A DNA stretch of 64,000 bases from Carcharhinus amblyrhynchos. Taxonomy: Eukaryota. Positions 15,401 through 59,808 of this stretch are shown piece after piece (positions within the stretch are counted from its first letter, which is position 1; every line of letters starts with the position of its first letter). The position numbers and the translations under genes were made by a program. The stretch covers positions 120,032,001 to 120,096,000 of the forward strand of contig OZ336872.1 of the NCBI GenBank assembly GCA_965287045.1, read 5' to 3'. The notes below the pieces were generated by a model that was given only the letters and a program-made list of their open reading frames with translations, made no database searches and had not been told where the DNA came from.

Positions 15401-15686
15401 AGATAAAAGCAAAATACTAGGGTTGCTGGAATTTGAAACAAAAACAGAAAATGCTGGAAAATCTCAGCAGGTCTGACAGCATCTGTGGAGGGAGGATAGA
15501 GCTGACGTTTCGAGTCTGGATGACCTTTCATCAGAGCTTTTTTTGTCAAGTGGTATCATCAAAACAGATACGGCAAAGGTGAAGGTACTAAGGGAATGAG
15601 ATGGAGTCCATTCTGACTGGAAACTCTGGTTCCATTCTCTCTCCACAGATGCTGTCAGAACTGCTGAGATTTTCCAGCATTTTGCT
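15401..15686. mobile_element. Inverted pair of Penelope-like terminal repeats (family A; 15401-15540 minus, 15611-15686 plus)
   Basis: AAAATGCTGGAAAATCTCAGCAGGTCTGACAGCATCTGTGGAG and its near reverse complement ~150-200 bp downstream. Confidence 0.8.
15500..15538 (-). ncRNA. Minimal (type I-like) hammerhead ribozyme motif
   Basis: Minus strand: AGCT CTGATGA A AGGTC ATCCA GACTC GAAAC GTC AGCT. This gives the core CUGAUGA/GAAA, stem II GGUC/GACU, a GUC cleavage triplet and stem I AGCU/AGCU. Activity is untested. Confidence 0.75.
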
Positions 15687-16148
15687 AAAAAAATCACATT
15701 GCCTCGTCTCCCACACCATCCTTGAGGTCCCTACTATTTCTGTCACCCCCTCACCTCGATATACTATTTAGGGCTGATTTCCCACACCAAACTATCCCAT
15801 AGTTTCTCTGTGGGGAAGCCAGTGGCACTTAATCTGCTGCTGGTGCCTAGAAGTTTGGTTCTCACCATCCCCAGATAATAGCACGTCAGTTATATAAATG
15901 AGAGATAGGTTAGCTCAGATTATCTGAATATCTATAAAGCACAATGGGAACTGACTTAGCAGCACTATAATTAACTGCAAAGGCATTTTGTTCTCAAAAC
16001 CAAACCTGACCAGGAAGCAAGCAGGATGCTTTATGGATAGAAATCTGGGATAACAAGTCTCCACTTCTCTTTCTAATCAGTCACACCCACTTCATGCCCA
16101 TTATTTGGGCAGAACTGATCAAAACTCTCCACTATGTGAAGGGATCAT

Positions 16149-16500
16149 GGGGAGGCGATAGCCAAGTGGTATTACCGCTTGTCAATTAATCCAGAAACTC
16201 AGCTAATATTCTGGAGACTTGCGTTCAAATCCCATCATGGCAGATGGTGGAGTTTGAATTCAATTTAATAAAATCTGGAATTAAGAATCTACTGGTGACC
16301 ATGAAACCATTGCTGGAAAAACCTATCTGGTTCACAAATGTTCTTTAGGGAAGGAAATCTGCCATTTTTGCCTGGTTTGGCCTACATGTGACTCCAGATC
16401 AACGTGATTGATTCTCAACTGCCCTCTGAAATGTAGGACAGCTCGGGTTGGACGATAAGTGCTGGCCAGCAGGTGATACCCATGTCCCGTGAATGAATTT
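16149..16500 (+). mobile_element. tRNA-derived SINE family 2 (L2-like tail)
   Basis: GGGGAGGCGATAGCCAAGTGG A-box, GTTCAAATCC B-box, tail ATAAGTGCTGGCCAGC..CATGTCCCGTGAATGAAT. Confidence 0.9.
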
Positions 16501-17614
16501 TTAGAAATCTGCATTGGAGTGACCTAACATGTCTACATCCATTATACTTGTGTTAATTATTATTGTATGTACTGGTTGTGGCATCCCACTCAAGCTTATA
16601 ATCCTTTGAGCTCACAGAATTACCTTTTCCCAGAAAGAGAATGCTTTTAAGCAGCAGCCTAGATAGGTAGGGGAAAGATTAAGCACCGTGAATTACAAAT
16701 GTCAACTCTTCATAGATTGATCTGCTCCAGTTCCATCTGAAAAATCTTCATAATAGAATCACAAAGAGATGGTGAGGATAATAATTCAGTGATTGTAAAT
16801 GCCCAGGTACTTTAGGAATCTTATGCATAACCATCCTCTACAAAGACATGCTGCGCTATCAATGAATGTTCAGTGCTCTCCTTTTATCAGTTGCTTTTCA
16901 ACCCATGAAAGAATGATCCTAAACAAGACAGTTGTGTCTTCTGACAGATACCCTTACCACTAAACTGTATTGATTTTTGCTAATTTTTCTATTCAGGAGT
17001 TCCTGGCTAGTCTTTGCACTGTATTCTAGCTTGGCGCACACACAGCAACGATAAAAGGTTTTACAATGAAAAAGAGAATTAATAAGGTGAGTGCAAAGAG
17101 CTTCTTGGAACAAAACCAGAACAGAACAAGGCAACTGAAGAATGTAATGACAAAGAATTCGCAAACACTTTTGTTTTGTCCTCCAGCTCTGGATCATCAG
17201 ATCAATAGTCACTGAGGACATAAATGTATGGATATTTTTAGAACAAGGGACAAAGAAGGCCATTTTCCATTGGGTCTCACTGGTTTCAGCCACTCTTATT
17301 GGGATCAATGAATGCTCTGATCTGATATTCTGTAGATTATCATCCAGCTCTTAGTTTGTTAGATATTTAGTGGTGAAATGGGAGTGGGAACTGAAGATGG
17401 CGGGTATCAAATTTCCCAACACTAGCAATCATGCCAGTTTCCTGAAATTGTTCTGATGGTCAGTGCTTTTTGCTGATGAGATGGGACGGTGGGAACTGGC
17501 AGCCTCTCTGACTCAAGAGATACCCAACTAAGCCAGTGAGGCTCGCAGAACGGAGTTCCCCATTGGCCTTGGGTGTGAACTTACGAGCCAGTAAAATCAG
17601 GGCTTATACATCTC

Positions 17615-17900
17615 TATAAAGCCCAGGACCCCACATGCCTTAACAACTGCTTTCTCAACCTAGCCTGCCACCTTCAATGATTTCTGCATGCATACTCCTA
17701 GGTCCCTGAGCTCATGCATCCCATTTAGAAGTACATCTTTTCCTTTATATCTTCTCTCCTTGTTCTGTTTCTCATTTTTCTGCATTAAATTTCATCCACC
17801 ACATGTCTGCCTATTCCACCCAGCCTGACTATGTTCTTTTGAGCTCAATCTCAATCCTCCTCACAGTTCACAATAATTACAAGTTATGTGCAGTCTGTAA
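17615..17900 (-). mobile_element. Old CR1 ORF2 fragment
   Basis: Minus strand resembles W.MKFNAEK.E..RDLG..V..SLKVA..VEK.VK.A.G.LGFI. Confidence 0.65.
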
Positions 17901-18127
17901 CTTTGCTGTGTTGCCTTCTCCAACTCTCTGAGGCTTCTGCACTCCAATTCTGCATAGTGTTGATATGAATCATTCCTTTGCACGGTGAGTGTCCTTTCCC
18001 TGCCTTCATCCTAAATTCAAGTATTCCCTCCCTAAACGTTTCCTCCTCTCTCCTCCTCTATTAAGATGCTCCTGAAAACATGATCAGGAGCAGGAAAATT
18101 TTGGTCATCTTTCTTGACCACTTCTGG

Positions 18128-18325
18128 CGTGTAGTAAGGGCATGGGATGCCCTGCCTGCAGCAGTTATGGACTCGCCAACTTTAAGGGCGTTCAAATGGT
18201 CATTGGATAGGCATATGGATAATATTGGAATAGTTTAGGTTAGAGGGTCATTAGGTTGGTTCCACTGGTCAGCGCAACATCGAGGGCTGAAGGGCCTGCA
18301 CTGCGCTGTAATGTTCTATGTTCCT
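18128..18325 (+). mobile_element. CR1 3' end (same subfamily as 45531-46280)
   Basis: GTAGTAAGGGCATGGGATGCCCTGCCTGCAGC..CTGGTCAGCGCAACATCG..GAAGGGCCTG..CTGCGCTGTAATGTTCTATGTT. Confidence 0.9.
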
Positions 18326-18367
18326 GTAGCTTGGTGGCAGAAAATGTCAAAGATGTTTATCCCACTT

Positions 18368-18465
18368 TCATTATACATATTATATATTATAATTACATAT
18401 AATATAATTATGTGCATATAACATTATATATTGTATACATGTATCATCTATATTATACATCATAC
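18368..18465. repeat. AT-rich low-complexity tract
   Basis: Degenerate TATA/CATAT iterations. Confidence 0.7.
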
Positions 18466-18716
18466 ATTGGGATGTCTCAATGAATTAAATGCACCATATA
18501 AAGGTAAGATGTTTTTGCTTTTAAATCTTTGTGGCCAGCTTCACACTCGCGTATCCTTGGCTAGTTTTGTATTTAGTCTTATTGCTGCTTTGTTCCATTT
18601 TACTTGGGGAGAAATGAGTGTCCCATGAGTTGAGCTGCATGCTTTCCATTAGCCCGTTAGCTTGTACAGAACTCAACAGGTTTCCTGCTGTTTTGCTGTG
18701 ATTTTAGGAGACATTT

Positions 18717-18878
18717 GGGGCGACATTGGTTTTGGGCAATTGTACAAAATAGGCAGTCGCGGATCGCAGCTGCTTCATACCATTAAAGTCAATGGAAAAT
18801 TACCTCAGCCAGAGTGTAAAATGGGCAGTTAATTAGCTATTGCCCACTTCATGCTGGTGCCCAAGACCAATTTTATCT
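18717..18878. mobile_element. MITE-like element
   Basis: Subterminal inverted repeat ATTGGTTTTGGGCA ... TGCCCAAGACCAAT; interior GTAAAATGGGC..GCCCACTT resembles 6525-6628. Confidence 0.55.
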
Positions 18879-19007
18879 TCAATGAGGAATTTCATGGTGT
18901 CTCCTTGATTTTGTAGAACTCCTAAAAAGTGCAGCTTGTGAAGCATATAGGTAGATAGTTCCTGGCACAGGAATCTGCATCTGACTTTACGAAATCTTGC
19001 TTCTAGA

Positions 19008-19335
19008 TGGGTGGCATAGTGGCACAATGGTTAGCACTGCTACTTCACAGCGCCAGGGACCTGAGTTCAATTCAGGCCTCGGGTCACTGTCTGCCTGGAG
19101 TTCGCATGTTCTCCCCATGTCCGTGTGAGTATCCTTCGGATGCTCCGGTTTCTTCCCAAAGTTGTGTGGGTTAGGTTGATTGGCCATGATAAATTGTCCC
19201 TCATGATAAATTGTCAGGGAGATTAACAGAGTAAATATGTGGACTTACTGGGATAGGGCCTGGATGAGATTGTTGCTGGTGCAGATTTGATGGGCTGAAT
19301 GGCCTCCTTCTGCACTGTAGGGATTCTATGATCTA
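19008..19335 (+). mobile_element. HE1-like V-SINE, tail A
   Basis: Full head, core and CTTCTGCACTGTAGGGATTCTATG tail. Confidence 0.95.
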
Positions 19336-20227
19336 TTTTATGATCCTATGATACATGTTGGCAGACTGCCAGCGTGTAGTGGCAAGATTTCGTAAAGTCA
19401 CATGCAGAGCCTCGTACTCACTCTCAGGAACAGTCCATGCCTTCTGATGTGGATCTATTAGAAGTACAATATTAATATATCTAATAGTCCAAAGCCATGT
19501 TTGTTGATCAATAAAGGGTGTTTACTTCAGATAACTGAGTTTAAAATGTCAATATCAATTCAATATGTGGGAGGTATATGCAAGAATTGCTGGTGCAGGA
19601 GGAACTCTGAGCGGAGAAACATATCAATCCTCCCTCACACATATTGATGTTTGTGCATTTAGTGATTTGAGTGCTACGGAACTGTGGAAATGGCCGATGA
19701 AGACCACAAAGCTGTTATAATGGAAGGAATTAAACAGGTTGCAATGTTGAGCTGATAGCTACAGCAGTTGCATGGTTCAGTAAATGGAATTCATAATCTT
19801 CTGAGTTCTACAATCTCCCGTTTGTTAACAATATGAGCTCCCCATTCCCTCATGATCCTTGCATTGTCTCATACTGCAATGATCTCTCAAACTCCCTCCT
19901 CTCATCCTGTTATGCGTTTTGCTCTTTTCCACTGCTCTGAAATGATTCCCTCAAGAGTCCTTTGTGCCCATTACATGTATTTTGGAAATTATTTCTCAGG
20001 GTCGCTTTATGAACCTTGTGCTTTCCACTTACAGGCAGTGGAGTCTGACTGTTTTCAAGAACTGAATATGCCCTCCAATATGCTGGAATGGTTTGAGAGA
20101 AAATACAAGGAAGCAGTGGAAACAAAAATAATTATTTGTGGATCTTTAAGAGTCAAAAAGATTATTTCAAGGTTTAAAGCGTCTGATGTATAACATCTGA
20201 TAAAATTCTTTGCTCTAAATTTTCAGT

Positions 20228-20530
20228 TTAAGTTTTTTTACGATTGTCAGAAGTAGGCTTAATTACCACTGCAATGAAGTTACTGTGAAAATCCCGTAGT
20301 CGCCACATTCCGGCACCTATTCAGGTACACTGAAGGAGAATTTAGTATGGGCAATGCACCTAACAAGCACCTCTTTCGGACTGTGGGAGGAAACCAGAGC
20401 AGCCAGGGGAAACCCACACACAGATACGGGGAGAACATACAGACACTGCACAGACAGTGACCCAAGCTAGGAATCGAAACCGGGTTCCTGATACTGTGAG
20501 TCAACAGTGTTAAACATTGTGCCACCATGC
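20228..20530 (-). mobile_element. V-SINE, tail B
   Basis: Reverse complement of head, core and tail B. Confidence 0.93.
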
Positions 20531-20581
20531 TCAAGATGATGTAGAAACCAATAAAGACTTATATCCCATCAATGTTTATAT

Positions 20582-20890
20582 GGGTGGCACGGTGGCACTG
20601 CTGCCTCACAATGCCAGGGACCCGGGTTCAATTCCCAGTTTGGGTCATTGTCTGTGTGGAGTCTGCACATTCTCCCCCTGTTTGCATGGGTTTCCTCCGG
20701 GTTCTCCGGTTTCCTCCCACAGTCTAAAAATGTGCGGATAAGGTGGATTGGCCATGCTAAATTGCCTCTTAGTATAAGGGGGACTAGTAGGGTAAATATA
20801 TGGGGTTGTGAGGATGGGGCCTGGGTGGGATTGTGGTCAGTGCAGGCTCAATGGGCCAAATGGCCTTCTTCTGCACTGTAGGATTCTGTA
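20582..20890 (+). mobile_element. HE1-like V-SINE, tail A
   Basis: Full copy, head-to-head with the previous SINE. Confidence 0.95.
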
Positions 20891-21896
20891 TGTATAGTCA
20901 TGGTAGCTTTAGAATGGGCAAATATAATTCTATTTTTGAAAGGATATTTTAATTTTTAAAACTCCAATATTGTAATGTTTGGGTTAAAAAGTGGAATTTC
21001 ACCGAAGAAGTTATCTGTTATTGTTTAACTCATGTCGGCCTCAATAAAAATATGGCAGATAATAATCTCAACAAGACAAGGGCTGGAAAATTTAAAATGT
21101 TCTTTCTTCCTGGATGAAGAAACAACACCACCTCTGGAAAGGTAAATCCCTCCTCACGCTTTAAAGGTCAAAAGCCCTGATCCGTGAACCCAATAGCATT
21201 GATGTGACGTTTACACGAAATATAATAACAGGGTTTATTTACAAGAAACTGTCCTCTATTAATAGAAAATGAATGCAGATTTGAATGATTTATTCATACA
21301 CTGCAGTGTAACCTAGAGTCACACTGAGGGAACGGAAAGCAACTCTCTCGTGCTCATTCTTTCCAAACTGGCATTGTGGTCTTTAATTAAAGTGACAAGC
21401 ATTCGGACGTATCAATCGGATTAGAAATAATAGCCATCGCTGAGGATTGCGTAATCACCTACATCAGCACTGGAGTTCTAACTGTCGGGTAGAGTGTGGG
21501 TGGCTTGTTACTGGATCAACAGAGCTGTCTGTGGTACTTGAGCCAGCTGTACTGCCATATGGATCTGGAGCAAATGATTGTCTGAGGGGTGTGCTCACTA
21601 CTCTGCCATGCCAGCCTCAGCACAAGTGTAAAACAGTGTTGGGGTAACACACTTAACAGAAAGAAAACGCACGAATGTTGCGGCGCATCATTTCCTGCCT
21701 CTCTGTGCAGGGAAGTGAGAGGAATCTGAAGAATAACAAGGAGAAGACAGATAGAAAGACAGGGAACAAATGCAGGGCAGCCGCATAAAGACAAGTCTTC
21801 ATATCCCTTTTATTGTAACAAATGCATCACTGCATTTCCTCGACACAGTGCTGACAATAATATTTTACGCCGTTAAGGCTCAAGATGCACCCTCAA

Positions 21897-22018
21897 GGGT
21901 GGAATTTTTCCATCCCATGGGAACAGTAGCGGGCAGGACACGGACCATGCCGAGGTCCATTGACCTTGGGTGGGATTTTCTGGCCTCCGGGGGCAAGGGC
22001 AGCCGGAAAATCCCGCCT
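21897..22018. mobile_element. ~120-bp PIF/Harbinger-like MITE
   Basis: GGGTGGAATTTTTCC ... GGAAAATCCCGCC with an internal GGGTGGGATTTTC; same family as 42031-42157. Confidence 0.75.
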
Positions 22019-23419
22019 CGTGTCTCCAAACGTCCCCGTGTTCTCTATCCGCAGAGCCGAGAGAATTCATGTTGTTCTAAAGTCAGCAAGAAGGCACATG
22101 ATAATTATTATTACAACACTGAGCATCAGACTGATTGTGGCAGAAGTCCCCAGGCAAAACAAAATGCGAGAGGCTGCCAACTGTTTTCTCCATTTAAAAT
22201 GCGTACAGTAAATTAAGTCGAATGGTTTCAGCTATGCTGAAAGTTGTCCCACTTAGATTCTGAATGATTGTCCAGGGAACTTTGGGGGCAGGTGGGAGGG
22301 TGGAGGTGGGGGGAAGAACATTTCGATTGCAGGACTAATGAAGGACTGTAGCTCATTTCACTTTGCGGCAGCTTACAATTGAAATACTAAGCCTGCTTTA
22401 AATAGTTTTCATCTTGCTGAGAGCTTAGACTGAGGGGTTTTTTTTTAATCTGGTGTAATTTATGTCGAGGTGGGGGTGGCGCTGTCAGAACAAAAAAAAC
22501 GAGGCAGTTTCTAAAATTATTTCCAGTATTGTTTCACGGCACAGAGATTGGGCTGATGGATCTGCAAATTCGACGCCCTGCACTTAAAGATATTTCACAG
22601 CCGTTTGACGGTGTGAATGTGAGTCATTGCCAAGCGGGGAAGATTTATCTCCTCTCTCCCCCCTCCCCACCCAAAACATTTCAGTGTTATCATTGGGAAT
22701 TTGCTTCCTTTTTTTTAACCAGAAGTGGCAATAATTTATTGTTTGACCCAACAAGCAGAAACAAAAGGGTCTCTGCCGCATATCACTGAAAACCAAGTCG
22801 ACTAGACATGGCGAACTATCAGATCAAGGCAAAAGTTAATCCTTTTGTGCTTCCATCTTGGCAACTATCCAAAGATTTACATGTTAGCTGAGGGTTAGTG
22901 CTGAACACATCAGAGATATTACAATCTGTCCCATCAACCCCGAGTCTCTTAATTCTCCAATTTGAGATCTACAACGTAATGACACAGATGTAACAATCCT
23001 TTTCTTTTTGCAAATTGATTGTTGTAGGCAGCATTGGATTACCCACAGAATGATTCATGGTTGAGATATTATCATTCTTTTCCTGGCTCAATTTTGGGTC
23101 AATTTAATCACTTCCAGTTCAACCAGCTAGAAATGTACAGACTGATTTGATTATTTGCTCTTCCATTCTTCCAACGCTGAAGTAAAAATGTGAACAGTTC
23201 TGAAATAAATATTCTTGGAGTGACTGAGGCTGCACAATATTTCATCTCCCTCTCAAAGCTCAGTATGTTCAAAGAGATGATATTGCCAGCGAAGTCTCTA
23301 ATGGGAAGAATCTATTGCTAGGCGACATGATAATTTTATGTATACGGGTTATATTAAGAGGAATCTCATGAAACAAAATAATCAGTGTAAATGCATAATC
23401 TAAGATAGACCTGCAATCT

Positions 23420-23736
23420 ACTGCCTCAGGAAAGCAGCCAGCATAGCCAAGGACCCCACGCACCCCGGATATACTTTATTCCACCTTCTTCCAACGGAAA
23501 AATGATACAAAAGTCTGAGGTAACGTACCAACTGACTCAAGAACAGCTTCTTTAGACTTTTGAATGGACCTACCTCATATTAAGTTGACCTTTCTCTACA
23601 CCTAACTGTGATTGTAAAAGTACATTCTTCACTCTCATTTCCTTCTCTAGGAACAGTATGCTTTGTCTGCATAGCGCACAAGAAAAATTACTTTTCACTG
23701 TATGCTAATATATACGACAATGATAAATCAAATTAA
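23420..23736 (+). mobile_element. Rex1/Babar 3' end (left arm of near-perfect inverted pair)
   Basis: About 98% identical to the reverse complement of 24519-24835 by manual comparison. Confidence 0.92.
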
Positions 23737-23737
23737 T

Positions 23738-24025
23738 TGGTTAGCACTGCTGCCTCACAGCGTGGAGGACCTGGATTTAATTCCTACCTTGGGTCTCTGT
23801 TCTGCGGAGTCTACACATTCTCCCTGTGTCTGCGTGGGTTTCCTCCAGGTATTTTGGTTTCCTCCCACAGAACGGAAGATATGCTGGTTATGTGCATTGG
23901 CCATGCTAAATCCTCCTTTAGTGTATCTGAACAACAGGCACTGGAGTGTGGCAACTAGGGGATTTTCACAGTAACTTCACTGCAGTGTTAATGTAAGCCT
24001 ACTTGTCACACTAATAAATAAACTT
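23738..24025 (+). mobile_element. V-SINE, tail B, slightly 5'-truncated
   Basis: Core plus tail B ending CACTAATAAATAAACTT. Confidence 0.93.
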
Positions 24026-24510
24026 TATTTTGTTTCAGCTGCATTCGACTAGCATTTAGCTATGTGTTGCTCAAACACAGCCCCACAATCCATCCCCCTC
24101 TCTCCCTACCCCACCAATTGTAACACCGGGCTTGACGGCAGTACAGGGGACAGATATAGTAAGTTTGCTATTGGTTTTGTCATTTTATTTAGCCCTAAGG
24201 AGTGTAGAGATTGACAGGGACACCAGGACTGATATAATTACAAATGTTCGACCATAACCATTTTAACATTTAAAGAAATGTGAAGCAAATATCCCCCCAG
24301 TCATAGCCATGTTGATATTTCTTCTAAGTATATTTGTGTAACGTTTGGAGCAGGTTGCGTTTTTAAACAGTCTGACTGATGGCTGTATGTTAACATCTGC
24401 TTATATTTTATTTGTTTAACATTCAAGTTAGTTTTTTAGTGCAGCCAATAACAACTGATAAGCCATTCCTATGAGATCCAGAGACTACTAAAGGGGTCCT
24501 ACATACCTAT

Positions 24511-25610
24511 GATTTGATTTAATTTGATTTATCATTGTCGTATATATTAGCATACAGTGAAAAGTAATTTTTCTTGTGCGCTATGCAGACAAAGCATACT
24601 GTTCCTAGAGAAGGAAATGAGAGTGAAGAATGTACTTTTACAATCACAGCTAGGTGTAGAGAAAGGTCAACTTAATATGAGGTAGGTCCATTCAAAAGTC
24701 TAAAGAAGCTGTTCTTGAGTCAGTTGGTATGTTACCTCAGACTTTTGTACCATTTTTCCATTGGAAGAAGGTGGAATAAAGTATATCCGGGGTGTGTGGG
24801 GTCCTTGGTTATGCTGGCTGCTTTCCTGAGGCAGTGGGAAGTGTAAACAGAGTCAATGGATGGGAAACTGGCTTGAGGGATGGACTGGGCTACTTTCACA
24901 ATCCTTTGTAGTTTCTTGCAGTCTTGGGCAGAGCAAGACCCTTACCAAGCTGTGATACAACCAGAAAGAATGCTTTCTATGGTGCATCTGTAAAAGTTGG
25001 TGAGAGATCTGGCAGACATGCCAAATTTCCTTAGCCTCCTGAGGACGTAGAGGTGTTGGTGAGCTTTCTTAACTATAGCGTCAGCATGTGGGGACCAGGA
25101 CAGGTTGTTGGTGATCTGGACACCTAGAAACTTGAAGATCTCGACCATTTCCACTTTAACTCCATTGTTATAGACAGGGGCATGTCCTCCACTACGCTTC
25201 CTGAAGTCGATTACTATCTCCTTCATTTTACTGACATTGAGGGAGAGATTATTGTCATTGCACCAGTTCACCAGATTCTCTATCTCTTTCCTGTATTCCG
25301 TCTCTTCATTGTTTGCCATCCAATCCACTATGGTGGTGTCATCAGCAAACTTGAAAATCAAGTTGAAGGGGAATTCGGCCACACTGACATAGGCGTATAA
25401 GGAATATAGTAAGGGGCTGAGGAGACTGCCTTGTGGGACACCGGTGCGGAGGATGTTCATGGAGGAGACATTGTTGCTTATCCTTACTGATTGCAGTTTG
25501 TGGGTTAGGAAGTCTAGGATCCAGTCACAGAAGGAGGAGCCAAGCCCTGGATCATGGAGTTTGGAGATGAGGTTCTGTTGGAACAATGGTGTTGGAGGCT
25601 GAGCGGTAAC
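24511..25610 (-). mobile_element. Rex1/Babar RT fragment with 214-aa open frame and 3' tail
   Basis: WILDFLT..GVPQGSLLSPLLYSLY..FKFADDTTIV..KKAHQHLYVLRRLRKFG..FYRCTIESILSGCITAW. Confidence 0.95.
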
Positions 25611-27320: not shown

Positions 27321-27404
27321 TAATGTCAAGTTTTATTTAATAATAGTGTCTTGGTATTGTTTACAGAGGAAATATAGGTCATCTGTTTTAATGCATCATC
27401 TAAA

Positions 27405-27532: not shown

Positions 27533-27544
27533 CTTGAAAAAACC

Positions 27545-27648
27545 CTGCTCTGACAAAGGGTCATCCAGACTCGAAATGTTGGCTCTGATATCTCTCCACA
27601 GATGCTATCAGACCTGCTGAGATTTTCCAGCATTTTCTGTTTTTGTTT
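27545..27648 (+). mobile_element. Penelope-like terminal repeat (family A) with decayed hammerhead motif
   Basis: GCT CTGACAA A GGGTC ATCCA GACTC GAAAT GTT GGCTC followed by TCTCCACAGATGCT..GACCTGCTGAGATTTTCCAGCATTTTC. Confidence 0.8.
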
Positions 27649-47050: not shown

Positions 47051-47437
47051 CAGAACCAACGCGCGGTCTCCCAACTAATGACTATATGTGGGATGATTGC
47101 AGTCCAGTCCGTGCCAGATCACTCCAGTTTTCTTGGTGTTGTGACACTTCATTTTTGGGGAAAATGGCAGTCTGAATATCTGCCTGCTGTCACTACTTTC
47201 ATGTGCCTTGTACAGATATTCCTGTTGCCTTTCTTTCAGCACCTTGATCTGTAGTCTACCTCGAGTTTCGGGGGGGGTTTTATTTGCTAATGTTGCTGAT
47301 GCTGATGCTGCCAGTGTTTCTGACAGATTGATGTGCTCCATAAGAAAACACTGCTGTTTTTAGTTGCTTATGCCTGGCCAGTTAAATTGCTGGGGTAGGC
47401 TGAAATTTTCTGATTGCTTTACCAGACATATCACATC

Positions 47438-47788
47438 AAATAAAAGCAAATTACTGCGGACGCTGGAATCTGAAACCAAAAGAGAAAATGCTGGAAAATC
47501 TCAGCAGGTCTGGCAGCATCTGTAAGGAGGGAAAAGAGCTGACATTTTGAGTACAGATGAACCTTTGTAAAAGCAGCCTTGTACTGAGGTCACAAAGACA
47601 GACTGGGGTACCTGTGTAAGGACAGGGAGACGAAGAGAAGCCATTGCAATTTTAGTTTTTAGTTTCGAGTCCAGATGACCCTTTAAAACTGCTTTAGTCA
47701 AAGGGTCATCTGGATTCGAAACGTCAGCTCTTTTCTCTCCTTTCAGATGCTGCCAGACCTGCCGAGATTTTCCAGCATTTTCTCTTTT
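47438..47788. mobile_element. Inverted array of Penelope-like terminal repeats (family A) with hammerhead-variant motifs
   Basis: 47438-47575 (-) and 47690-47788 (+) are near reverse complements; extra inverted repeat GTTTCGAGTCCAGATGACCCTTT / AAAGGGTCATCTGGATTCGAAAC at 47662-47722. Confidence 0.82.
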
Positions 47789-48039
47789 GATGTCACATCC
47801 TTCGGGTAGAAGGAAGTTAGAAGAATCTAAGCATATGGAGGGTCCGCAGTGTTCCTGACAGGGTGTTTATCTCTAATCCATAATTACATAGCCCTCATTG
47901 CAGGATGACTATTTCAACACCCTTTACAGAACCTTTATTATATCATACTATTGCAACTCAATTTATAAAACCCTCATTTTATCATGGTTACCTGACTATC
48001 AATTATTGAACCCATATTATTTCATGGCATAAACAGCAA

Positions 48040-50170: not shown

Positions 50171-50201
50171 CTTATTATTTAGGGAAGATCCTTTCCCTAA
50201 A

Positions 50202-51098: not shown

Positions 51099-51355
51099 GT
51101 GGATAATGGAAAAGCTGACCACTCTATATCGACTTTATCGTGTTGTGGCATGTCTCTGCAAACTATGGAGAATAGACTTGCTGTCTCAACAGACACAAAT
51201 TTAATAATTTTTCCCAAGGATAGGAGGAAGAAGCCAGACTCTCAAACCAAGAAGCTGTGTATAGACCAAGATAGTGAGCAGCAAAAGAGTAGCCTGCCCC
51301 ACATGCAGACAGTGTACAAAGAGGATCAATGGCCTGGGAACAACAGGAAAGCGAG
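51099..51355 (+). pseudogene. Myb/SANT-like DNA-binding domain fossil (PIF/Harbinger accessory ORF type)
   Basis: SLQTMENR..IIFPKDRRKKPDSQTKKLC, then after a frameshift KIVSSKRVACPTCRQCTKRINGL. This resembles the LF..K.AW.EVA.VSS..RT.QC.KR.NDL pattern of Harbinger Myb/SANT proteins. Confidence 0.6.
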
Positions 51356-51968
51356 CCCCAAGCTCCACATTCTGACTTCCCTGGTATTTCCTGCATAGCA
51401 TTCCTCAGCTTCAGTCACTCCTTTCTCCCCAGGTAGCTCCTGGCATCCCCCTGTGAAAAGTTAAACATTCACCCCTCATCTTTGAGTCACCCATGCTTCA
51501 TAGTGACCCTCCACAAATGTTGTCCTTCCCTCCTCTCCACACAATCCATTCCTTACAACTCTCTGCTTTCTTGCCTTGTAGAAGAAGAGAGTGCACAATT
51601 TGAAGGAGAGACAATGAACTTGGGGGTGGGGGGTCAGTAGCCCTCCACCAGTGATGACCATGGGCAATGTGTGACCACCTGGAGCACTGGGAAGAAAGTC
51701 TTGGTCCAGGTGGCTGCAGGTGTCGGCAGTGACCTCTCGTGAATGTCTGAGCCTCTTGAGACACTGGTGCTCACACATGCTGAGAGAGCCGATTGTCTGC
51801 CTGTAGCTGCTGCGTTGGTGGTCTCCTCTCTTTTGAGTTGGATCACTGTGTCCATCCCCTCTGCCCTCTGAGGAAGCATGTAGCTGAGGGGAAGGCAGCT
51901 GACGTTGCTGCTACTGTTGCCCCTGGTCCTATTGTCATTGCTTCTGCTCCTGCTGTTTGTCAGTGAGG

Positions 51969-52101
51969 GTCTAAAGTATGGTTGCATGTCCCTATGCCGT
52001 GTAATGTCCCTATGCTATGTAAAGTCTAAAATAGGGTTTAGTAAAGTTGCATGTCCCTATGCTATGTAAAGTCTAAAGTAGGGTTGCATGTCCCTATGCT
52101 G
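51969..52101. repeat. Imperfect tandem repeat (~35-45-bp unit, 3-4 copies)
   Basis: GTTGCATGTCCCTATGCTATGTAAAGTCTAAA recurs. Confidence 0.85.
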
Positions 52102-52143
52102 TGGTGAAGGCTTGAAATGGAGGTGCTGGCATTAGATTTGGGT

Positions 52144-52315
52144 GAGCACAGTAAGAAGGCCCACAACACCAGGTTGAAGTCCAACAGCTTTATTTGGAAT
52201 CACGAGCTTTCAGTGCTCCTGAGTGCTCCCCTGATGAAGGAGCAGTGCTCCAAAAGCTCGTGATTCCAAATAAACCTACTGGACTTTAACCTGGTGTTGT
52301 GAGACTTCTTACTGT
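52144..52315. mobile_element. Palindromic pair of Penelope-like terminal repeats (family B)
   Basis: CACAGTAAGAAG..CACAACACCAGGTTGAAGTCCA..TTTATTTGGAATCACGAGCTTT and its reverse complement around a ~40-bp centre. Confidence 0.85.
52227..52263 (+). ncRNA. Minimal hammerhead motif (family B) with a GAAA-to-AAAA change
   Basis: TCCC CTGATGA A GGAGC AGT GCTCC AAAAG CTC GTGA: perfect 5-bp stem II and CUC triplet. The catalytic G is probably lost by CpG decay. Confidence 0.65.
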
Positions 52316-52460
52316 GGTGAAGGCTGACAAGACAATGCAGATCACGGTGAGCAAAACACAAGATGAATGTATTGACTTCCAAGGAATTAGAAGTCACTTA
52401 TCAAACAATAAAAGTATATTCTTAGAAGTCCCAGCCTCTCAGCTGGGTATAGCTACAGCT

Positions 52461-52565
52461 AGAACAAAAACAGAAAATGCTGGACAATCTCAGCAGATCC
52501 AACAGCATCCGTGAAGAAAGAATTGTTTGAAAGCTTCAAGTCTGGATGAACCTTCGTCAGAGCTT
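52461..52565 (-). mobile_element. Penelope-like terminal repeat (family A), decayed hammerhead
   Basis: Minus strand AGCT CTGACGA A GGTTC ATCCA GACTT GAAG.. Confidence 0.78.
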
Positions 52566-53039
52566 TGTTCATGGCTACAGCTAGTCTCTTTCACTGTTTG
52601 AAGGCTTCCAAACTTGTCAGTTTCACTGGTTGATCCAGGCAAATTACACACAGCTTAGGAAACATGTGTGCTGCTTGTTAAAACCAAAGTGTTGGGTTAA
52701 ATCCTCAGTGAATGGTTTAATTATTCACTTGAAGATTCTATAAGTGCTCTTCGCTCAGCTGCACATCTGCCCTTGTTCAATTTGGAAGTGGGTGGGTTCC
52801 TGATGTCACTTTTTGGGACAGATATTCCTTCTGTACCCAAACCCACATCCATTAAAATGCTGCTTAAAGTGTCAGTTTATGGAGCAGAAAACAATTAGAG
52901 GAGATAAGTATAAAGTAGTCATTAAGACATCTGAATGTGGATCTTGCTGCCATAAGTAGTTGTTGACGTGAATAGCACTGATCCATTTAAGCTAGATAAA
53001 TGCACGAGGGAAAAAGGAATGTAAGATTATGCTAAAAAA

Positions 53040-53442
53040 GAGTCCTTCGCCTCAGGACCAGGAGCCCCACTCCCAAGACTCAAGCATCAATGCTGCACTG
53101 AAGGGATGCTACTGTATCGGAAGTACCTTCTGTTGGATGAGATGTTAAAAATTAGATCACCCATCTGCTCTCTTGGGCGGACATAAAAGGTCTTATTTGC
53201 GCAGTTTCAAAGTGCAGAGGAGTTCTCTATTGATCTCTCAACCAACACATTAGTAAAACAGATTATTGGACTACTTATGAGCTCCGTGTTCTTTGTGGAA
53301 GATTGCCTTTTGGAAACTGGTTATCACATTTCCTTTTGTTACAATGGTGACTCAACTTTGAAAGTTCTTTATTGGCTAGAGAGTGCTTTGGGATGTCCTG
53401 AGGTTCTGAAAGATCCATATAAATAGAAGTTCTTTCTTTCTT
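53040..53442 (+). mobile_element. SacSINE1-like DeuSINE
   Basis: GGATGAGATGTTAAA..GGAGTTCTC..CTCAACCAACAC Deu-like core; tail TTTGGGATGTCCTGAGG..ATAAATAGAAGTTCTTTCTTT. Confidence 0.8.
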
Positions 53443-54545
53443 TAAGTATGTAGCAATTGTAGGGCTAATTTCCCACTTGGTCAATCTTAGTGTGGAGCAG
53501 CGCTCATCAAGAAATTACGAGCTTGCCCTGCGTGAGGTTTTATCTGTTAATTGTTGTTTGGGCTCTTGGTTTAACCTTATGCCCAGAAGTAGTGAACGAT
53601 GCAAACATAATCCAGCTGCCAGCACAAACACAATAAGGTACGATTTCTTCTGCTCTAGTTACTAGAGAAAGCAGAGTTCTGGAAATAACTGAGCTTAAAA
53701 TTTTATGAATTATATATTCTTTGGCTTCAGAATGTTAGATGACATGTGTGATATGTGCACACTGCATGAAAAATCAACGCCAAAGAAGCTAATTAAGCTT
53801 TGAAAAGCTTCAGAAACAGAAGGAAGCATAGGTGTACGTGCGTTAGATATATATTATAGATATAAACATATATAGTATGTACAAGGAGAGAGCGGGATAG
53901 AGAGTTTACAACTCTCATTAGGCAGCCAAGTGCAGTTTCAGAAGATTAAGTTGTCATATTGGAACTGGGAATGATTATCCGATGCAAAGTGAAGGTGATA
54001 GCTTGTCACAATTGTGGGGAAGTGTTTAATTCTCAGCTCTCAGAGTAACAATTCAATAGGATGTGGTGTGTTCTTTAAAGGTAGGCACAAATGATGTTAT
54101 TTTCAAAACCTCATGCAGAAGTGGCAAGTCAGTTAATTTATATAGGTAATGCACACAACTAGAAGTATAGTTGATCCTGATTGGAAAAGACTTGTTTCTC
54201 CGAAAACATTCACTCAGATCCCATGCTAATCTGCTATCCAGCTTCTCCCCTTGAGGCATCTACTTTTTTCCCAAGCCGCTACCCTCTTCCAGTCATAGCC
54301 AATTCCATCTCAGACACGATATGGTACTTACCAAACCTGTTGCTACAAATAACCATGGTCACCCTTAATCCTTCCCAGTTCTACAGTTATTCCTCCCATG
54401 CACATTGTTCCTGCTTCACCCCCATTATTGTTCCCAATATTTGTCACATTTTCTCTGTGTTGTCACCACTCATCTCAAGGTTGCTGTAAAATTAGTCCCA
54501 GTACTGCATTTATTTCCATAATCACTGTCACCATTTTTCCAAAAT

Positions 54546-54846
54546 TGCACAGTGGCAAGCGTTGCTGCCTCACAGTGCCAAAGACCCAGCTTCGATTCCT
54601 GGCTTGGGTCACTGCCTGTGTAGAGTTTACACATTCTCACCGTGTCTGCATGGGTTTTCTCTGGGTGCTCTGGTTTCCTCGCACAGTCTGAAAGATGTGC
54701 TGGTTAAGTGCTTTGTCCATGCTAAACTCTCCCTCAGTGTAGTTGAACAGATGCCGGAGTGTGTGGCGAGTAGGGGATTTTCACAATAATTTCATTGTAG
54801 TGCTAATGTAAGCCTACTTGCGATACTAATGAATAAACTTAAAACT
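54546..54846 (+). mobile_element. V-SINE, tail B
   Basis: Head, core and tail B. Confidence 0.93.
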
Positions 54847-55244
54847 TTTAACACGGAGGGAAATCATTCCCCTCAACTACAGGCAACTGGTTGATACCAT
54901 TGTCATTAAAATTGAGAATGTGCATTTTGTTCCACCAGGGACTAAGAAATTGGGCACCAAATTCTCCGACTTTGCTGCAGTGAATGGCCAGAAAGATCAC
55001 GCCCAGAGTGTGGAATCACCCCATGGCAGAGACATTCCGGGAGCTAGTGACAGCCCGGAGGCTGCCGTACAATTCTTATTAATAAATAACATTTTTGTAT
55101 CGACTGATGAAGTCTCTGGAAGTGCATCATTACACTGTCCATATTTTGTTTTACCTTCAGTAGCTGGAAAGTGTTCTTCTGTCTCCAAGCCAGGAGGCTG
55201 TAACTTGCAATTACTTTAATTTACTAAATTAGTAATTAATTAAC

Positions 55245-55760
55245 TAACCAAATAAATCACTCAGTTTAGACATTGATGGACTGGTGGAATGCCCACAGTG
55301 CAACATATGGAAATTTGAAGAATACATTGCCAGTCTGGGCACCCAGAGCTGTGGTATGTATCCACAGCTTTGTTTCAGAGGCCAAACTGCAGACATTGCT
55401 GAACAACAGCAAGGAGAAGAGGTACAGTATCTTGATACTTTGTTCCAGGGGGAAGTAACACTCCTTAGGTTAAGCAGAACTTCAGAGATGGTCAATGGTC
55501 AGGAATAGGAAGATGTGACAGGAAGATATGGGGATCCAGCATGTGGTGATGAAGAAGCATCATTCCGTGATGTTGACCAACAGGTATGAAGTACTTGGGT
55601 TGGAAAGAGGGGGATTGGTTCATGGGGTACTGGCATCATATTCAGGGATAGGGAAGCTGCTCCATTGAAGTGAGCTCTACTTAAGCAGGGATGGGATCAG
55701 TGTCCAAGTGCATTGTATAACCAGGGCTGTGGTTCGGGGTTTAAACCAAAATGTGTTGGT
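55245..55760 (+). mobile_element. Old CR1 ORF1 remnant (N-terminal zinc-finger region)
   Basis: MECPQCNIWKF..SCGMYPQL..YLDTLFQGEVT parallels the ORF1 start at ~59300-59491 (minus). Confidence 0.7.
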
Positions 55761-55798
55761 TCAGGTGAAGGAAGAAATTCAAAATCCTCAGATAAGAG

Positions 55799-56015
55799 TG
55801 TAATGACTTCAATCAGGCCATTGTGGTTCGTCTATTGGAATATAAACTCCCTAATTAAGGAGTCAATTGATGAGCCAATCAGGGAGTCCTTTCCTTGTAT
55901 TTAACTGGGAATGTCAGTTCCTCTGGCACTCACGAAAGTACACTGTGTACTGCTATTGGAATTGTAAATAAAGGAATTTTGGTGAAGGGACTTCTGCCTC
56001 TGAATACTTATTGCA
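55799..56015 (+). mobile_element. 217-bp solo LTR with 5-bp TSD
   Basis: AAGAG|TGTAATGA ... TTATTGCA|AAGAG; CCAAT, TATTTAA, and AATAAA at 55967-55972. Confidence 0.85.
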
Positions 56016-58640
56016 AAGAGTTAGAACCATACAGCGCAGAAGAGGTCCTTTGATCCACTGAGTCCACACCGATATATTAGAAACACCTGAATTCCCATCT
56101 GCCAGCACTTGGCCCATAGCCCTGAATGTTATGACATACCAAAGGTTTATCCAGACACTTTGTAAAGGATGTGAGGCGATCCGCTTCCACCACCCTCGCA
56201 GGCAGTGCATTCCAGACCATCACCACCCTCTTGGGTAAAAAGGTTTTTCCTCACATTCTCCCTGAACCTCCTGCCCCTCACTTTGAACCTATGTCTCCTT
56301 GTGATTGACCTTCAACAAGGAGAACAGCAGCTCCTTATCCCCTCTGTCCATGTCTCTCATAATCTTGTACACCTCAATCAGGTCACCCATCAGTCTTCTC
56401 TGCTCCAACGAAATCAACCCAAGCTTACGCAACCTCTCTTCACAACTTAAATATTCCATCTCAGGCGGCATCCTGGTGAATCTCCTCTGCACTCCCTCCA
56501 ATGCAATCACATCCTTCTGACAATGTGGTGACCAGAATTGCACATAGTACTCCAGCTGTGGTCTCACCAAAGTTCTGTACAACTCCATGACTTCCCTGCT
56601 TTTGTAATCTCTGCTTCGATTTTTAAAGGCAAGTGATCCATATGCCTATTTCACCACCCTACTAACATGTCCTTCCACCTTCAGCGATCTGTGGAAAAAT
56701 ACGCAAAGGACCCTTTATTCCACAGAACTTCCAAGTTTCCTACCATTCATTGAGTACATTCTTGTCAAAGTACTTCTTTCAAAGTACATCGCCTCACACT
56801 TTTCAGGGTTAAATTCCATCTGCCACTTATCTGCCCATTTGACCATTCCATCTCTATATTCTTGTAGCCCAAGACACTGCCTCACTTTTAACCACCCATC
56901 CAACCTTTGTGTCATCGGCAAGCTTACTAATCCTACTCCCCCACATAGTCATCAATGTCATTTATATAAATGACCATTAATAGGAGGCCCAACACAGATC
57001 TCTTTGGTATGCCACTGGACTCTGGCTTCCAGTCACTAAAGCAGCCTTCTATCATCACCTTTGGTCTCCTACAACGAAGCCAATTTTGAATTCACTTTTC
57101 CAAATTACCCTGTTTCCCATGTGAATTTATCTTCTTTATAAGTCTCCCATGTGGGACCTTGTAAAGGCTTTGCTGAAATCTATACAAACTACATCGACTC
57201 TCATTTACACACCTGGTCACCTCCTCAAAAAATTCAATCAAATGTGTTCAGCATGACCTCCCTCTGGTGAAGCCATGCTGACTATCCCTGATCAAGCTTT
57301 GCCTCTCCAAGTGGAGATAGATGCTCTCCTTCAGAAGCATCTCTAATAGTTTCCCTCCACTGGCATGGAACTCACTGGTCTTTCTCTGGTTTTTCTCTAC
57401 AACCCTTCTTAAATAGCAGAACCATGTTAGCAGTTCCCCAGTTGTCTGGCACCTCCCTTGTGGCCCGAGTGGAATTGAAAATTTGGGCCCGAGCCCCGAC
57501 AATCTCCTTCCTTGCCTCCCATGGCAGCCTAGGGCACAATTCATCTGGACCTGGAAATTTATCCACTTTTATGGCTGCCAATACCTTGTCCTTCCCTATG
57601 TCAATTTGCTCAAGAACTTCACAGTCTCTCTCCTTGAATTCCATACCATCGTCATTCTCTTGGGTGAAGACTGATGTGAAGTATTCATTCAACACTCTAC
57701 CAATGTCCTTTGGCTCCCCTCACAGATTGTCCCCTTTGTCCCTCATGGGCCTGAACCTGGTTATCTTCTTCCCATTGATAAACTTATAGAATATCTTGGG
57801 ATTTTTCTTACTTCTAAGAGCCAAAGCTTTCTCATATCCCTTCTTTGCATTTCTAATCACTTTCTTAAACTGCACCCTGCACTTTTTATACCTCATTAAT
57901 GACTACACTGATTTGCTTCCCTTGAACTTTTTAAAAGCTTTTTTTTTCCTTCTCAGTGTATCCTGAATATCTCCGGTCATCCATGGTTCTCTGGGCTTGT
58001 CATTCCTACCTATCACCTTCGAGGGAACATACTGGACTTACACCCTCCTCATTTCATTTTTTGAATGGCTTCCACTGCTCTTCTCTAGATTTCCCCAATA
58101 GTAGCTGTTCCCACTCTGCTTTGGCCAGATCATGTCTTATTTTACTGAAATCTGCTCTTCCCCTATCCATGCCCTTATTCTGCTAACAGTCTGTGTCCCC
58201 TCCCCCTGCCAAATTAGTTTCAACTCCCCCCCAACAGCACTAACAAAATGTCCCACAAGAATGTTCATCCTGTTCTGGGATGTAGACCGTCCAGCTTGTA
58301 CAGGTCCCACGTTCCCCAGAAATGGTCCCAGTGATCCAGGAATCTAAAACCCTCCCTCCTGCACCAACTCTTAAGCCACACATTCATCTGCACTATCCTC
58401 CTATTTCTGTGCTTGCTAGCATGTGGCACTGGGAGTAATCCAGAAATTACAACCCAAGAAGTCTTGCGTTTTCGATCATCACCTAACTCCCAGAATTCTT
58501 GATGCAAGACTTCATCCTTCTTCCTATCTATATCACTGACACCAAATGTGCCGTGATCTTTGCCTTATCACCCTCCACCTTCAGAATGCCCTGCATCAAC
58601 TCAGTAACATCCCAGGCCCTAGAACCAGGGAGGAAACACA

Positions 58641-58676
58641 AATAAACTTGTTGGACTTTAACCTGGTGGTGTGACT
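58641..58676 (+). mobile_element. Penelope-like family B fragment inside CR1
   Basis: AATAAACTTGTTGGACTTTAACCTGGTGGTGTGA resembles 52269-52302. Confidence 0.7.
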
Positions 58677-59019
58677 ACATAGAACATAGAACCCTACAGT
58701 GCAGAAACAGGCCCTTCGGCCCATCGAGTCTGCACCGACCACAATCCCACCCAGGCCCTATCCCCGTACCCCTATACATTTATCCACTAATCCCTCTCAC
58801 CTACACATCCCAGAACACTGAGGGGCAATTTAGCATGGCCAATCAACCTAACCCGCACATCTTTGGACTGTGGGAGGAAACCGGAGCACCCGGAGGAGAC
58901 CCACGCAGACATGAGGAGAATGTGCAAACTCCACACAGACAGTGACCTGAGCCAGGAATCGAACCCAGGTCCCTGGAGCTGTGAAGCAGCAGTGCTAACC
59001 ACTGTGCTACCATGCCGCC
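58677..59019 (-). mobile_element. Relatively young HE1-like V-SINE, tail A, inside CR1 ORF1
   Basis: Close to consensus with CpGs retained; tail (ACATAGA)n. Confidence 0.97.
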
Positions 59020-59699
59020 ACAACGGCCACAGTAGCATCTATCTGTACAACTGACTATAGAATCCTCTATTACTATTGCCGTGCCTCTCTTCCCCCCTTC
59101 CTATACATTCAGGCTGCTGGTGGTGCCAGAAGCTTGGTTCTGTCTGCACTCCCTGGAGCAACAACAATCCAAAATGGAATACCAATTTGCGAGCGAGACC
59201 CCAGGGGACTTTGAACTACCTGCCTACATTTCTTGGACTGCCTGGTGGCCAGGTATTCCCTTCCTTCCACATTTCTTGGTCAGCTGCGGTGTGTCCACTT
59301 CCCTAAACGTGCTATCCATAATGCTCTACAGTGTCACCAGTCACTGCCGTTCCAGCCCCAAAGCTCGAGCTTCCAGGAGGTGTAGCTGGACACACTTCCT
59401 GCACACATGCTGGCCCCAGGCACTGGAAATGCGCCTGGTGTCCCACATGGAGCAAGAAGAGCAAACCACAGCTGCAAGCCCTCCTGCCATGATTAAACCC
59501 TTTAAGTTTAAAAACTTTATAAGATTTTTTAAAGAAAGAAATAAAACAAATTATTCCTTACCCTTGCTTAACCAATGAGTTTCAATTTAATACGGTTTGA
59601 AAATATCCACCAGGACTTACTCACCAATCAGCTGTGCCCATTGGTCTCACATTCCTTTCTGACCCGTAAAGTCTGTGTCCTTTTTTTTTGAAGTGGAGA

Positions 59700-59808
59700 C
59701 GCTGGTGTTGGACTGGGGTGGGCACAGTAAGAAGTCTCACAACACCAGGTTAAAGCCCAACAGGTTTATTTGGTATGACGAGCTTTTGGGGCGCTACTCC
59801 TTCATCAT
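59700..59808 (-). mobile_element. Penelope-like terminal repeat (family B), hammerhead decayed or truncated
   Basis: Minus strand TGATGA A GGAGT AGC GCCCC AAAAG CTC GTCA..CAAATAAACCTGTTGG. Confidence 0.8.

What the first reader, a model, noticed from the sequence alone, without database searches (positions are those of the whole stretch)
15401..59808. Two hammerhead-bearing short retroelement families with compensatory covariation, dispersed without their ORF
Seen: family A (10686, 15401, 15611, 27545, 47438, 47690, 52461) uses GAAAC/GUC with stem II GGGUC/GACUC. Family B (52144/52227, 58641, 59700) uses (G)AAAG/CUC with stem II GGAGC/GCUCC. The flanks look unrelated, but the architecture is the same (CUGANGA, an extra A, stem II, GAAA, NUC) with a C-G to G-C swap in stem III. 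About ten 40-170-bp copies occur in 64 kb, while the only Penelope coding remnant is a GIY-YIG tail at 63565-63750. Inference: abundant 5'-truncated Penelope ends, or non-autonomous ribozyme-carrying (retrozyme-like) elements amplified in sharks.
Basis: partly seen in the sequence, partly recalled or inferred. Interest (0 to 1): 0.7.

Follow-up and report, generated by a model that had tools for sequence, protein, structure and literature searches.

The report
Penelope retroelement stubs stopping at promoter
The two short repeat families are the ribozyme-bearing ends of two ordinary, decayed Penelope-type jumping genes, not independent mobile RNAs, but many copies stop 30 bases downstream of a TATA-like box, which likely marks the start of the RNA they were copied from and hints at how these elements replicate.

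Summary
The repeats are real. Both are terminal repeats (pLTRs) of two distinct RT/GIY-YIG Penelope-like elements with known minimal type I hammerheads. A follows its endonuclease tail in 22 of 29 loci, B in 26 of 29. In 1.33 Mb sampled genome-wide (about 65 A and 80 B pieces per Mb), a truncation ladder runs into the ORF, and I found no tandem retrozyme arrays and no pile-up at the cleavage site. Covariation holds between subfamilies (core C3-G8 to U3-A8, stem II, stem III swap). Only 1 of 12 window pieces keeps an intact core, and a second coding remnant lies at 15542-15615. The copies are not random stubs either. Their 3' ends are bimodal. Head-to-head pairs join one tailed and one untailed arm (18 of 21 A, 25 of 32 B), often with a TSD. 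34 of 87 A copies start 30 nt below a conserved TATA. Likely: twin internal priming, with cDNA running off the RNA's 5' end. The scan noted these elements before on other DNA of this genome; the TATA-anchored stop was not in the notes I saw.

The parts
10680..10741 (-). Family A pLTR piece, untailed 3' end, starts downstream of the ribozyme (about +38); no hammerhead
15404..15539 (-). Family A (subfamily A2-like) tailed arm, +1 to about +137, of a head-to-head insertion
15501..15537 (-). The only intact minimal type I hammerhead core in the window; predicted cut between 15504 and 15503 (GUC)
   Evidence: the cut site follows from hammerhead numbering
15542..15615 (-). 74-nt fragment of the family-A ORF (between the RT core and the endonuclease) captured between the two arms; second coding remnant
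   Evidence: E 1.8e-8
15610..15683 (+). Family A untailed arm, +17 to about +91; weak low-complexity 9-bp duplication at 15384-15392 and 15685-15693
27547..27648 (+). Family A unpaired untailed copy, +2 to +103; core decayed (3-8 mismatch, position 15.2); no TSD found
47441..47574 (-). Family A (A1) tailed arm, +2 to +138; core decayed
47575..47689 (.). Centre of the insertion: about 87 nt of unrelated sequence, then a short extra ribozyme piece at 47662-47685(-)
47690..47790 (+). Family A untailed arm from about +2; the whole insertion is flanked by a 10-bp duplication with 1 mismatch (47428-47437 and 47790-47799)
52113..52219 (-). Family B tailed arm, about +19 to +126; lacks the 5' core
52226..52318 (+). 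Family B untailed arm, +2 to +92, G12 changed to A; pair flanked by a perfect 14-bp TSD (52099-52112 and 52312-52325)
52463..52565 (-). Family A unpaired untailed copy, +1 to +102, with a 14-bp TSD with 1 mismatch (52449-52462 and 52571-52584); core decayed
58639..58676 (+). Family B 38-nt piece downstream of the ribozyme; no hammerhead
59689..59807 (-). Family B unpaired tailed copy, +8 to +126; lacks C3, G12 changed to A
63567..63782 (+). C-terminal GIY-YIG coding tail and start of the 3' UTR of the family-A parent element; no pLTR follows in this copy
   Evidence: E 2e-75

Best explanation
Families A and B are the hammerhead-containing terminal repeats (pLTRs) of two different RT/GIY-YIG Penelope-like retrotransposons, left as dead insertions, and the short copies are likely cDNAs primed inside the RNA that ran off its 5' end. 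Steps: (1) SHOWN: a TATA-like box lies 30-32 nt upstream of a position (+1) just before hammerhead stem I in all subfamilies examined. INFERRED: it starts an RNA of the form pLTR-ORF-3'UTR-pLTR. (2) SHOWN: 3' ends fall at two sites about 35 nt apart; head-to-head pairs usually carry one of each, often inside one TSD. INFERRED, by analogy with the anole element in vitro: the protein cuts both target strands and each end primes at one of two internal start sites. (3) SHOWN: 5' ends pile up at +1, not at the ribozyme cut (+36), with a ladder beyond it. INFERRED: priming in the upstream pLTR gives 100-138-nt run-off copies from uncleaved RNA; priming in the downstream pLTR gives the ladder into the ORF. 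(4) INFERRED: short copies lack the TATA and mostly the intact core, so they do not propagate. The ribozyme was under selection in the active masters and would need a second copy to fold.
For: Linkage: A follows the EN tail in 22 of 29 loci, B in 26 of 29. A's ORF matches 13 RT proteins, best E 6e-78, with PF00078/PF26215 and in two cases GIY-YIG PF01541; B's ORF matches 8 of 8 tested, best E 2e-38. 3' ends are bimodal: A about 97-108 and 134-141, B about 91-103 and 126-137. Head-to-head pairs with one tailed and one untailed arm: 18 of 21 (A, P 5e-4) and 25 of 32 (B, P 7e-4); tailed+tailed 0 and 1. TSD of 7 bp or more in 5 of 20 and 16 of 32 pairs against a null of 0.5% (these counts include window pairs, and one A 'pair' is a double count of the 47.6-kb locus). 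TATA-type motifs peak at -30 in A (26 hits among 46 copies) and at -30/-32 in B (24 and 14 hits among 56) across different spacers. A 5' ends: 34 of 87 at -3..+6 against 7 in the 30 nt upstream and 21 in the 30 nt downstream (P 9e-10; unpaired only 21 of 61, P 8e-7); 0 of those 21 carry the TATA. In the best-match loci, 20 of 28 A and 19 of 28 B copies that reach +8 stop within -3..+6. In asymmetric pairs the longer arm stops near +1 in 5 of 9 A and 8 of 15 B. No excess at the cut site (P 0.89 and 0.40). Literature: minimal hammerheads in pLTRs (PMC4209133); two internal RT starts, both strands cut, uncleaved RNA used (PMC11167929); TATA plus Inr in rotifer pLTRs (PMC3846280).
Against: No RNA 5'-end data: the start site is predicted from spacing alone. 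In B the pile-up is weak in the unbiased sample (11 of 105; P 0.28 against the downstream 30 nt). The B window -4..+8 for asymmetric pairs was chosen after seeing the data. In A, +1 is also YAG after a pyrimidine tract (a possible splice acceptor; the D. virilis intron ends at helix I) and begins with the palindrome AGCT, so other causes are possible. Partners without shared upstream were trimmed at +1, which can misplace copies of rare subfamilies; about 4-5 such A copies were seen by eye. Most unpaired copies lack a TSD (2 of 49 A, 1 of 25 B), so some may be remains of larger insertions. Of 24 loci with the ORF start, 8 run upstream of +1 and only 3 stop at +2..+6. The D. virilis promoter was described as TATA-less.
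Confidence: 0.6

Rival explanations
1. Ordinary PLE ends from priming in the downstream pLTR only. The excess at +1 has a local cause (the AGCT palindrome favouring fold-back or annealing, later loss of one arm, or a polymerase barrier), not the RNA's 5' end.
For: A has AGCT at +1, and several +1 copies carry a few inverted bases upstream. Symmetric pairs centred there exist. Unpaired copies are about half tailed and half untailed (27:24 A, 18:22 B) and mostly lack TSDs. B's unbiased excess is weak.
Against: B has no palindrome at +1, yet longer arms stop there in 8 of 15 asymmetric pairs. TATA spacing is kept at -30 across diverged spacers in both families. Window copy 52463-52565 starts at +1 inside an intact 14-bp TSD. 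Short inverted arms upstream of unpaired copies are no commoner than control (6 vs 5 of 52, 2 vs 2 of 25).
Confidence: 0.27
2. In family A, +1 is a 3' splice site, and short copies derive from spliced read-through transcripts whose upstream exon differs from copy to copy.
For: Pyrimidine tract plus YAG in three A subfamilies; an intron ending at helix I in D. virilis.
Against: No shared upstream exon among non-extending +1 copies. B has no AG at +1. It does not explain the TATA spacing.
Confidence: 0.08
3. A and B are self-standing non-LTR retrozymes that spread through ribozyme-cut circular RNAs.
For: Very high copy number of short pieces. Retrozyme-like tandems are reported for one chondrichthyan genome and are related to pLTRs (bioRxiv 2026.07.22.740005).
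Against: No head-to-tail arrays: same-strand neighbours within 400 nt number 3 among 95 A and 2 among 111 B pieces, and none of those listed is a unit repeat. Ends do not match the cut site. A ladder runs into the ORF. Cores are intact in only 5 of 87 A and 20 of 107 B pieces.
Confidence: 0.05

Closest known systems
Minimal type I hammerheads in pLTRs of metazoan Penelope-like elements (Cervera and de la Pena 2014, PMC4209133; read parts 1-2 of 4)
   Same: Core, extra nucleotide between 9 and 10.1, G10.1-C11.1, loopless palindromic 15.2-16.2, U3-A8 variant, thousands of single dispersed motifs from truncated PLEs, pairs on opposite strands.
   Different: The parts read name fishes, coelacanth, frog and reptiles, not these families. 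They propose circular templates, whereas ends here pile up 35 nt upstream of the cut site.
EN+ PLEs of the Neptune/Nematis type (Craig et al. 2021, PMC8557442; Arkhipova et al. 2013, PMC3846280; passages)
   Same: RT plus C-terminal GIY-YIG, cysteine-rich linker, 5' truncation, partial tandems, inverted 5' copy, 30-40-bp tail at one end, TSD, TATA and Inr in the pLTR.
   Different: Clade not tested by phylogeny. The 2013 paper explains head-to-head junctions by self-priming on an antisense template; the tailed-plus-untailed rule and the +1 stop fit twin priming on sense RNA.
Poseidon element of Anolis carolinensis, PAc (Frangieh et al. 2024, PMC11167929; read parts 1-2 of 4)
   Same: Two internal RT start sites that define the tail; both strands cut and extended; uncleaved RNA is the main template; starts about 110 nt into the pLTR-ORF junction.
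   Different: Different clade; shown in vitro there, only inferred from genomic ends here. The parts read do not describe run-off copies ending at a start site.
Metazoan non-LTR retrozymes (Cervera and de la Pena 2020, PMC7229834, passages; Li et al. 2026, bioRxiv 10.64898/2026.07.22.740005, parts 1-3 of 5)
   Same: Type I hammerhead, no ORF in the short copies, relation to pLTRs.
   Different: Retrozymes are head-to-tail tandems with a ribozyme per unit and make circles; these copies are single or head-to-head, with ends unrelated to the cut site.

Membership tests
EN+ Penelope-like element | RT ORF of PLE type upstream of the repeat | tested here: met
   Pfam on single decayed copies is only weak (RVT_1 E 0.0036)
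EN+ Penelope-like element | C-terminal GIY-YIG endonuclease | tested here: met
   motifs; PF01541 E 0.019, below cut-off; homologs with PF01541
EN+ Penelope-like element | pLTR on both sides of the ORF, partial tandems | tested here: met
   family A: L108, about 3.4-kb unit; 8 of 24 ORF-start loci run upstream into the 3' UTR. Not tested for B
EN+ Penelope-like element | Optional 30-40-bp tail; inverted 5'-truncated copy; TSD | tested here: met
Neptune/Nematis clades | CX2-5CxxC linker before GIY-YIG | tested here: met
   intact in a B copy (L144), decayed in the A copies printed, present in 10 of 13 homologs by pattern
Neptune/Nematis clades | Placement in the RT phylogeny | not tested
Minimal type I hammerhead | Core, extra nucleotide after A9, G10.1-C11.1, complementary 15.2-16.2, H17 not G | tested here: met
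   extra A in 75 of 79 and 104 of 107; H17 is G in 3 of 79 and 3 of 107; pairs. The parser fixed U4, A6, A9, A13-A15.1 and U16.1, so these were not tested independently
Minimal type I hammerhead | Compensatory covariation | tested here: met
   A core 3-8: UA in 31 of 32 (cluster 1), CG in 28 of 38 (cluster 2); B stem II pairs 2-4 exceed all 1000 shuffles; A against B swaps in stems I, II, III. Few independent events; shuffles ignore relatedness; R-scape not available
Minimal type I hammerhead | Self-cleavage as a dimer or with protein | not testable with these tools
   needs an in vitro assay
Non-LTR retrozyme | Head-to-tail tandem units, each with a hammerhead | tested here: not met
   (1.33 Mb plus window; rare arrays elsewhere are not excluded)
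Non-LTR retrozyme | Copy ends at the cleavage site, as expected of cut monomers | tested here: not met
Non-LTR retrozyme | Circular monomer RNA | not testable with these tools
   only contigs were offered, no raw RNA reads

The most novel reading that the evidence does not exclude
The 100-138-nt copies are a Penelope equivalent of retroviral strong-stop DNA. The RNA is terminally redundant from the start site to the tail; reverse transcription primed in the upstream repeat runs off at +1; and a jump of that cDNA to the downstream repeat would regenerate the promoter-bearing partial tandem, whose origin is an open question for PLEs. Hundreds of thousands of stubs would then be a fossil map of start site, both priming sites and a two-ended insertion mechanism, with the hammerhead poised to clip only a 35-nt capped leader.
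Probability: 0.3. Interest if true: 0.65.

Novelty: new member of a known kind. Interest (0 to 1): 0.32.

Why it matters
As a catalogue entry it is ordinary: minimal hammerheads in truncated Penelope ends have been described since 2014. The added value is mechanistic. Very abundant fossils give counts for three things that the papers I read describe only qualitatively or in vitro: two priming sites used one per DNA end, templates not cut by their own ribozyme, and a stop at a predicted start site. If the last holds, it makes testable how PLEs rebuild their upstream promoter, and it argues against an antisense or circular template for most insertions. It also warns that many 'monomeric retrozymes' in vertebrate surveys may be such stubs.

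Tried and rejected
Rfam: nothing at gathering score. Single-copy folding: not significant. Pfam on decayed ORF pieces: only sub-threshold hits; PDB sequence search: nothing relevant. tblastn of homologs against the window gave no hit at E 1e-3, so the window's coding remnants rest on the DNA profile. RNA: no RNA holder listed; only contigs. Laying four runs showed thousands of matching contigs but could not show starts or circles. An apparent shared 5' boundary 1.1 kb upstream of the A stop codon was rejected: longer copies run through it. An apparent A cluster at +41..+50 was rejected as old diverged copies that still carry ribozyme remnants. A cluster at the cut site was tested and not found. 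Hidden short second arms beside unpaired copies: no excess over control. The joint A+B alignment was out of register by one column, so pairs were counted from a motif parse instead. The sample stayed at 133 stretches from contigs C1-C24; smaller contigs are not represented.
Full report
Observation. The listed positions hold two repeat families. Profiles built from real long copies find 8 A and 4 B terminal pieces in the window and nothing in reversed control sequence of the genome sample. On the sense strand each family reads as a minimal type I hammerhead: 3-bp stem I, core, extra A, 4-5-bp stem II, GAAA, a loopless 2-bp palindromic stem III (AC|GU in A, AG|CU in B), then NUH. Only the copy at 15501-15537(-) passes a strict core test, 1 of 12; background windows pass 11 of 20000 times. 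Rfam has no match at gathering score, and single copies fold no better than shuffles, as expected for motifs thought to need a partner (PMC4209133). A second coding remnant lies at 15542-15615(-).

Parents. Searching the own genome with the window's endonuclease tail gave 150 scored matches of 9359 candidates. In 22 of the 29 other loci fetched, family A follows about 360 nt after the ORF end. Longer copies carry RT and GIY-YIG motifs and match 13 database proteins of 734-1027 aa, 12 with PF00078. One copy spans about 3.4 kb from an upstream pLTR piece through the ORF to a downstream pLTR. Family B follows a different endonuclease end in 26 of 29 loci; RT sequence lies upstream in L142, which overlaps B-bearing copies at 75% but has itself lost the pLTR. 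A cysteine-rich linker points to the Neptune/Nematis type (PMC8557442 passages); I ran no phylogeny. No intact ORF was seen in the 20 long A loci and 7 long B loci inspected.

Unbiased sample. 133 stretches of 10 kb at round coordinates on contigs C1-C24 hold 98 A and 108 B terminal pieces. 87 and 105 were placed; the rest were dropped for low score or for lying at a stretch edge. That is about 65 and 80 pieces per Mb, roughly 1.9e5 and 2.4e5 genome-wide, counting both arms of a pair. Numbering from +1 (the A just before stem I), the cut site is +35/+36.

3' ends and pairs. 3' ends are bimodal in both families, about 35 nt apart, the known optional tail. Head-to-head pairs number 21 (A) and 34 (B), window included; tail-to-tail 0 and 1; same-strand neighbours within 400 nt 3 and 2. 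One arm is tailed and the other untailed in 18 of 21 and 25 of 32 scorable pairs; TSDs flank 5 of 20 and 16 of 32 against 0.5% in mismatched flanks. All three window pairs follow the rule; two have clear duplications of 10 and 14 bp. Unpaired copies seldom show a TSD (2 of 49, 1 of 25), which I cannot fully explain. This matches the two internal RT start sites and two-strand cutting shown for the anole element (PMC11167929).

5' ends. A ladder exists: 24 of 105 B and 2 of 87 A copies extend more than 100 nt upstream. But 34 of 87 A copies start at -3..+6, 18 at exactly +1, against 7 in the 30 nt upstream and 21 in the 30 nt downstream; about 4-5 of these are probably misplaced members of a rarer subfamily. 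B shows a step rather than a spike (11 at -3..+6, 8 upstream, 28 downstream; spike not significant against downstream). In best-match loci 20 of 28 A and 19 of 28 B copies that reach +8 stop within -3..+6, and longer arms of asymmetric pairs stop near +1 in 5 of 9 A and 8 of 15 B (the B window was chosen after the fact). There is no excess at the cut site. Copies that extend upstream show a TATA-like box at -30 (A) and -30/-32 (B) over different spacers; the -30 spacing to a polymerase II start is textbook knowledge, recalled. TATA and Inr were noted in rotifer pLTRs (PMC3846280), whereas D. virilis was called TATA-less (PMC2377424). Of 24 loci with the ORF start, 8 extend upstream as partial tandems, 3 stop at +2..+6, 2 at +11..+15, 6 further inside the pLTR, and 5 gave no scorable pLTR: compatible, not decisive.

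Covariation. Clustering on sequence outside the ribozyme separates subfamilies. A1 has U3-A8 with GUC (31 of 32); A2 has C3-G8 with mostly GUU (28 of 38). B subfamilies swap stem II pairs 2-4 and use CUC, CUA or CUU. H17 is G in 3 of 79 and 3 of 107. Between A and B, stems I, II and III change on both sides. These are a handful of independent events in master elements; most genomic copies have since decayed (intact core in 5 of 87 A, 20 of 107 B).

Mechanism and rivals. The identity as PLE pLTRs is close to certain (about 0.95). The best account of the short class is twin internal priming with run-off at the RNA's 5' end (0.6 overall). Local causes at the AGCT palindrome (0.27), a splice acceptor (0.08) and retrozymes (0.05) remain. 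Retrozymes are defined by head-to-tail units and circles (PMC7229834 passages; bioRxiv 2026.07.22.740005 parts 1-3), and the tandem test failed here. RNA could not be tested.

Novelty. Five literature searches listed no paper whose title, abstract start or passages I read reports 5' ends piling up at a predicted start site. The library lacks most subscription papers, and I did not read Arkhipova 2006 or Evgen'ev and Arkhipova 2005. Repbase and Dfam were not available, so the families may already be named. I opened no supplements; those of the 2026 preprint are closed and may list chondrichthyan families that overlap these. Earlier AI notes on this genome reached the same identity on other DNA; none of those shown mentions the TATA-anchored stop, though one hints at informative arm ends and one found no evidence for a start at a hairpin tip. 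Verdict: new members of a known kind, with a testable mechanistic lead; interest 0.32.

Noticed in passing
window 23420-23736 and 24519-24835: 317-nt inverted repeat, 98% complementary, 782 nt apart, far younger than the surrounding repeats; a tRNA-type SINE starts at the inner edge of the left arm. No TSD obvious.
   Followed up: partly
window 6939, 11572, 19006, 20567, 27010, 28961, 42174, 48357, 50199, 54531 and others: Abundant dispersed SINE with a tRNA-like head, at least two tail types; class recalled, not tested.
   Followed up: no
window 62236-62885: Degenerate 28-29-nt C-rich minisatellite.
   Followed up: no
window 15542-15615 and 47575-47661: Two head-to-head insertions carry captured sequence at their centre: an ORF fragment in one, 87 nt of unrelated DNA in the other; suggests template jumps after the cDNA reached +1.
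   Followed up: partly
L200, L237, L256, L111 (family B, subfamily with 12-14-nt stem II): A B subfamily with near-identical upstream sequence among copies and highly variable but paired stem II; looks younger and is the best place to seek an intact element.
   Followed up: no
L251:7737-7912, L134, L135, L038: A and B pieces abut each other directly more than once, hinting at insertion preference or template switching between families; not counted against chance.
   Followed up: no
families A and B, +2..+35: The ribozyme begins 1-3 nt after the predicted start site in both families, so cleavage would remove only a 35-nt leader.
   Followed up: partly
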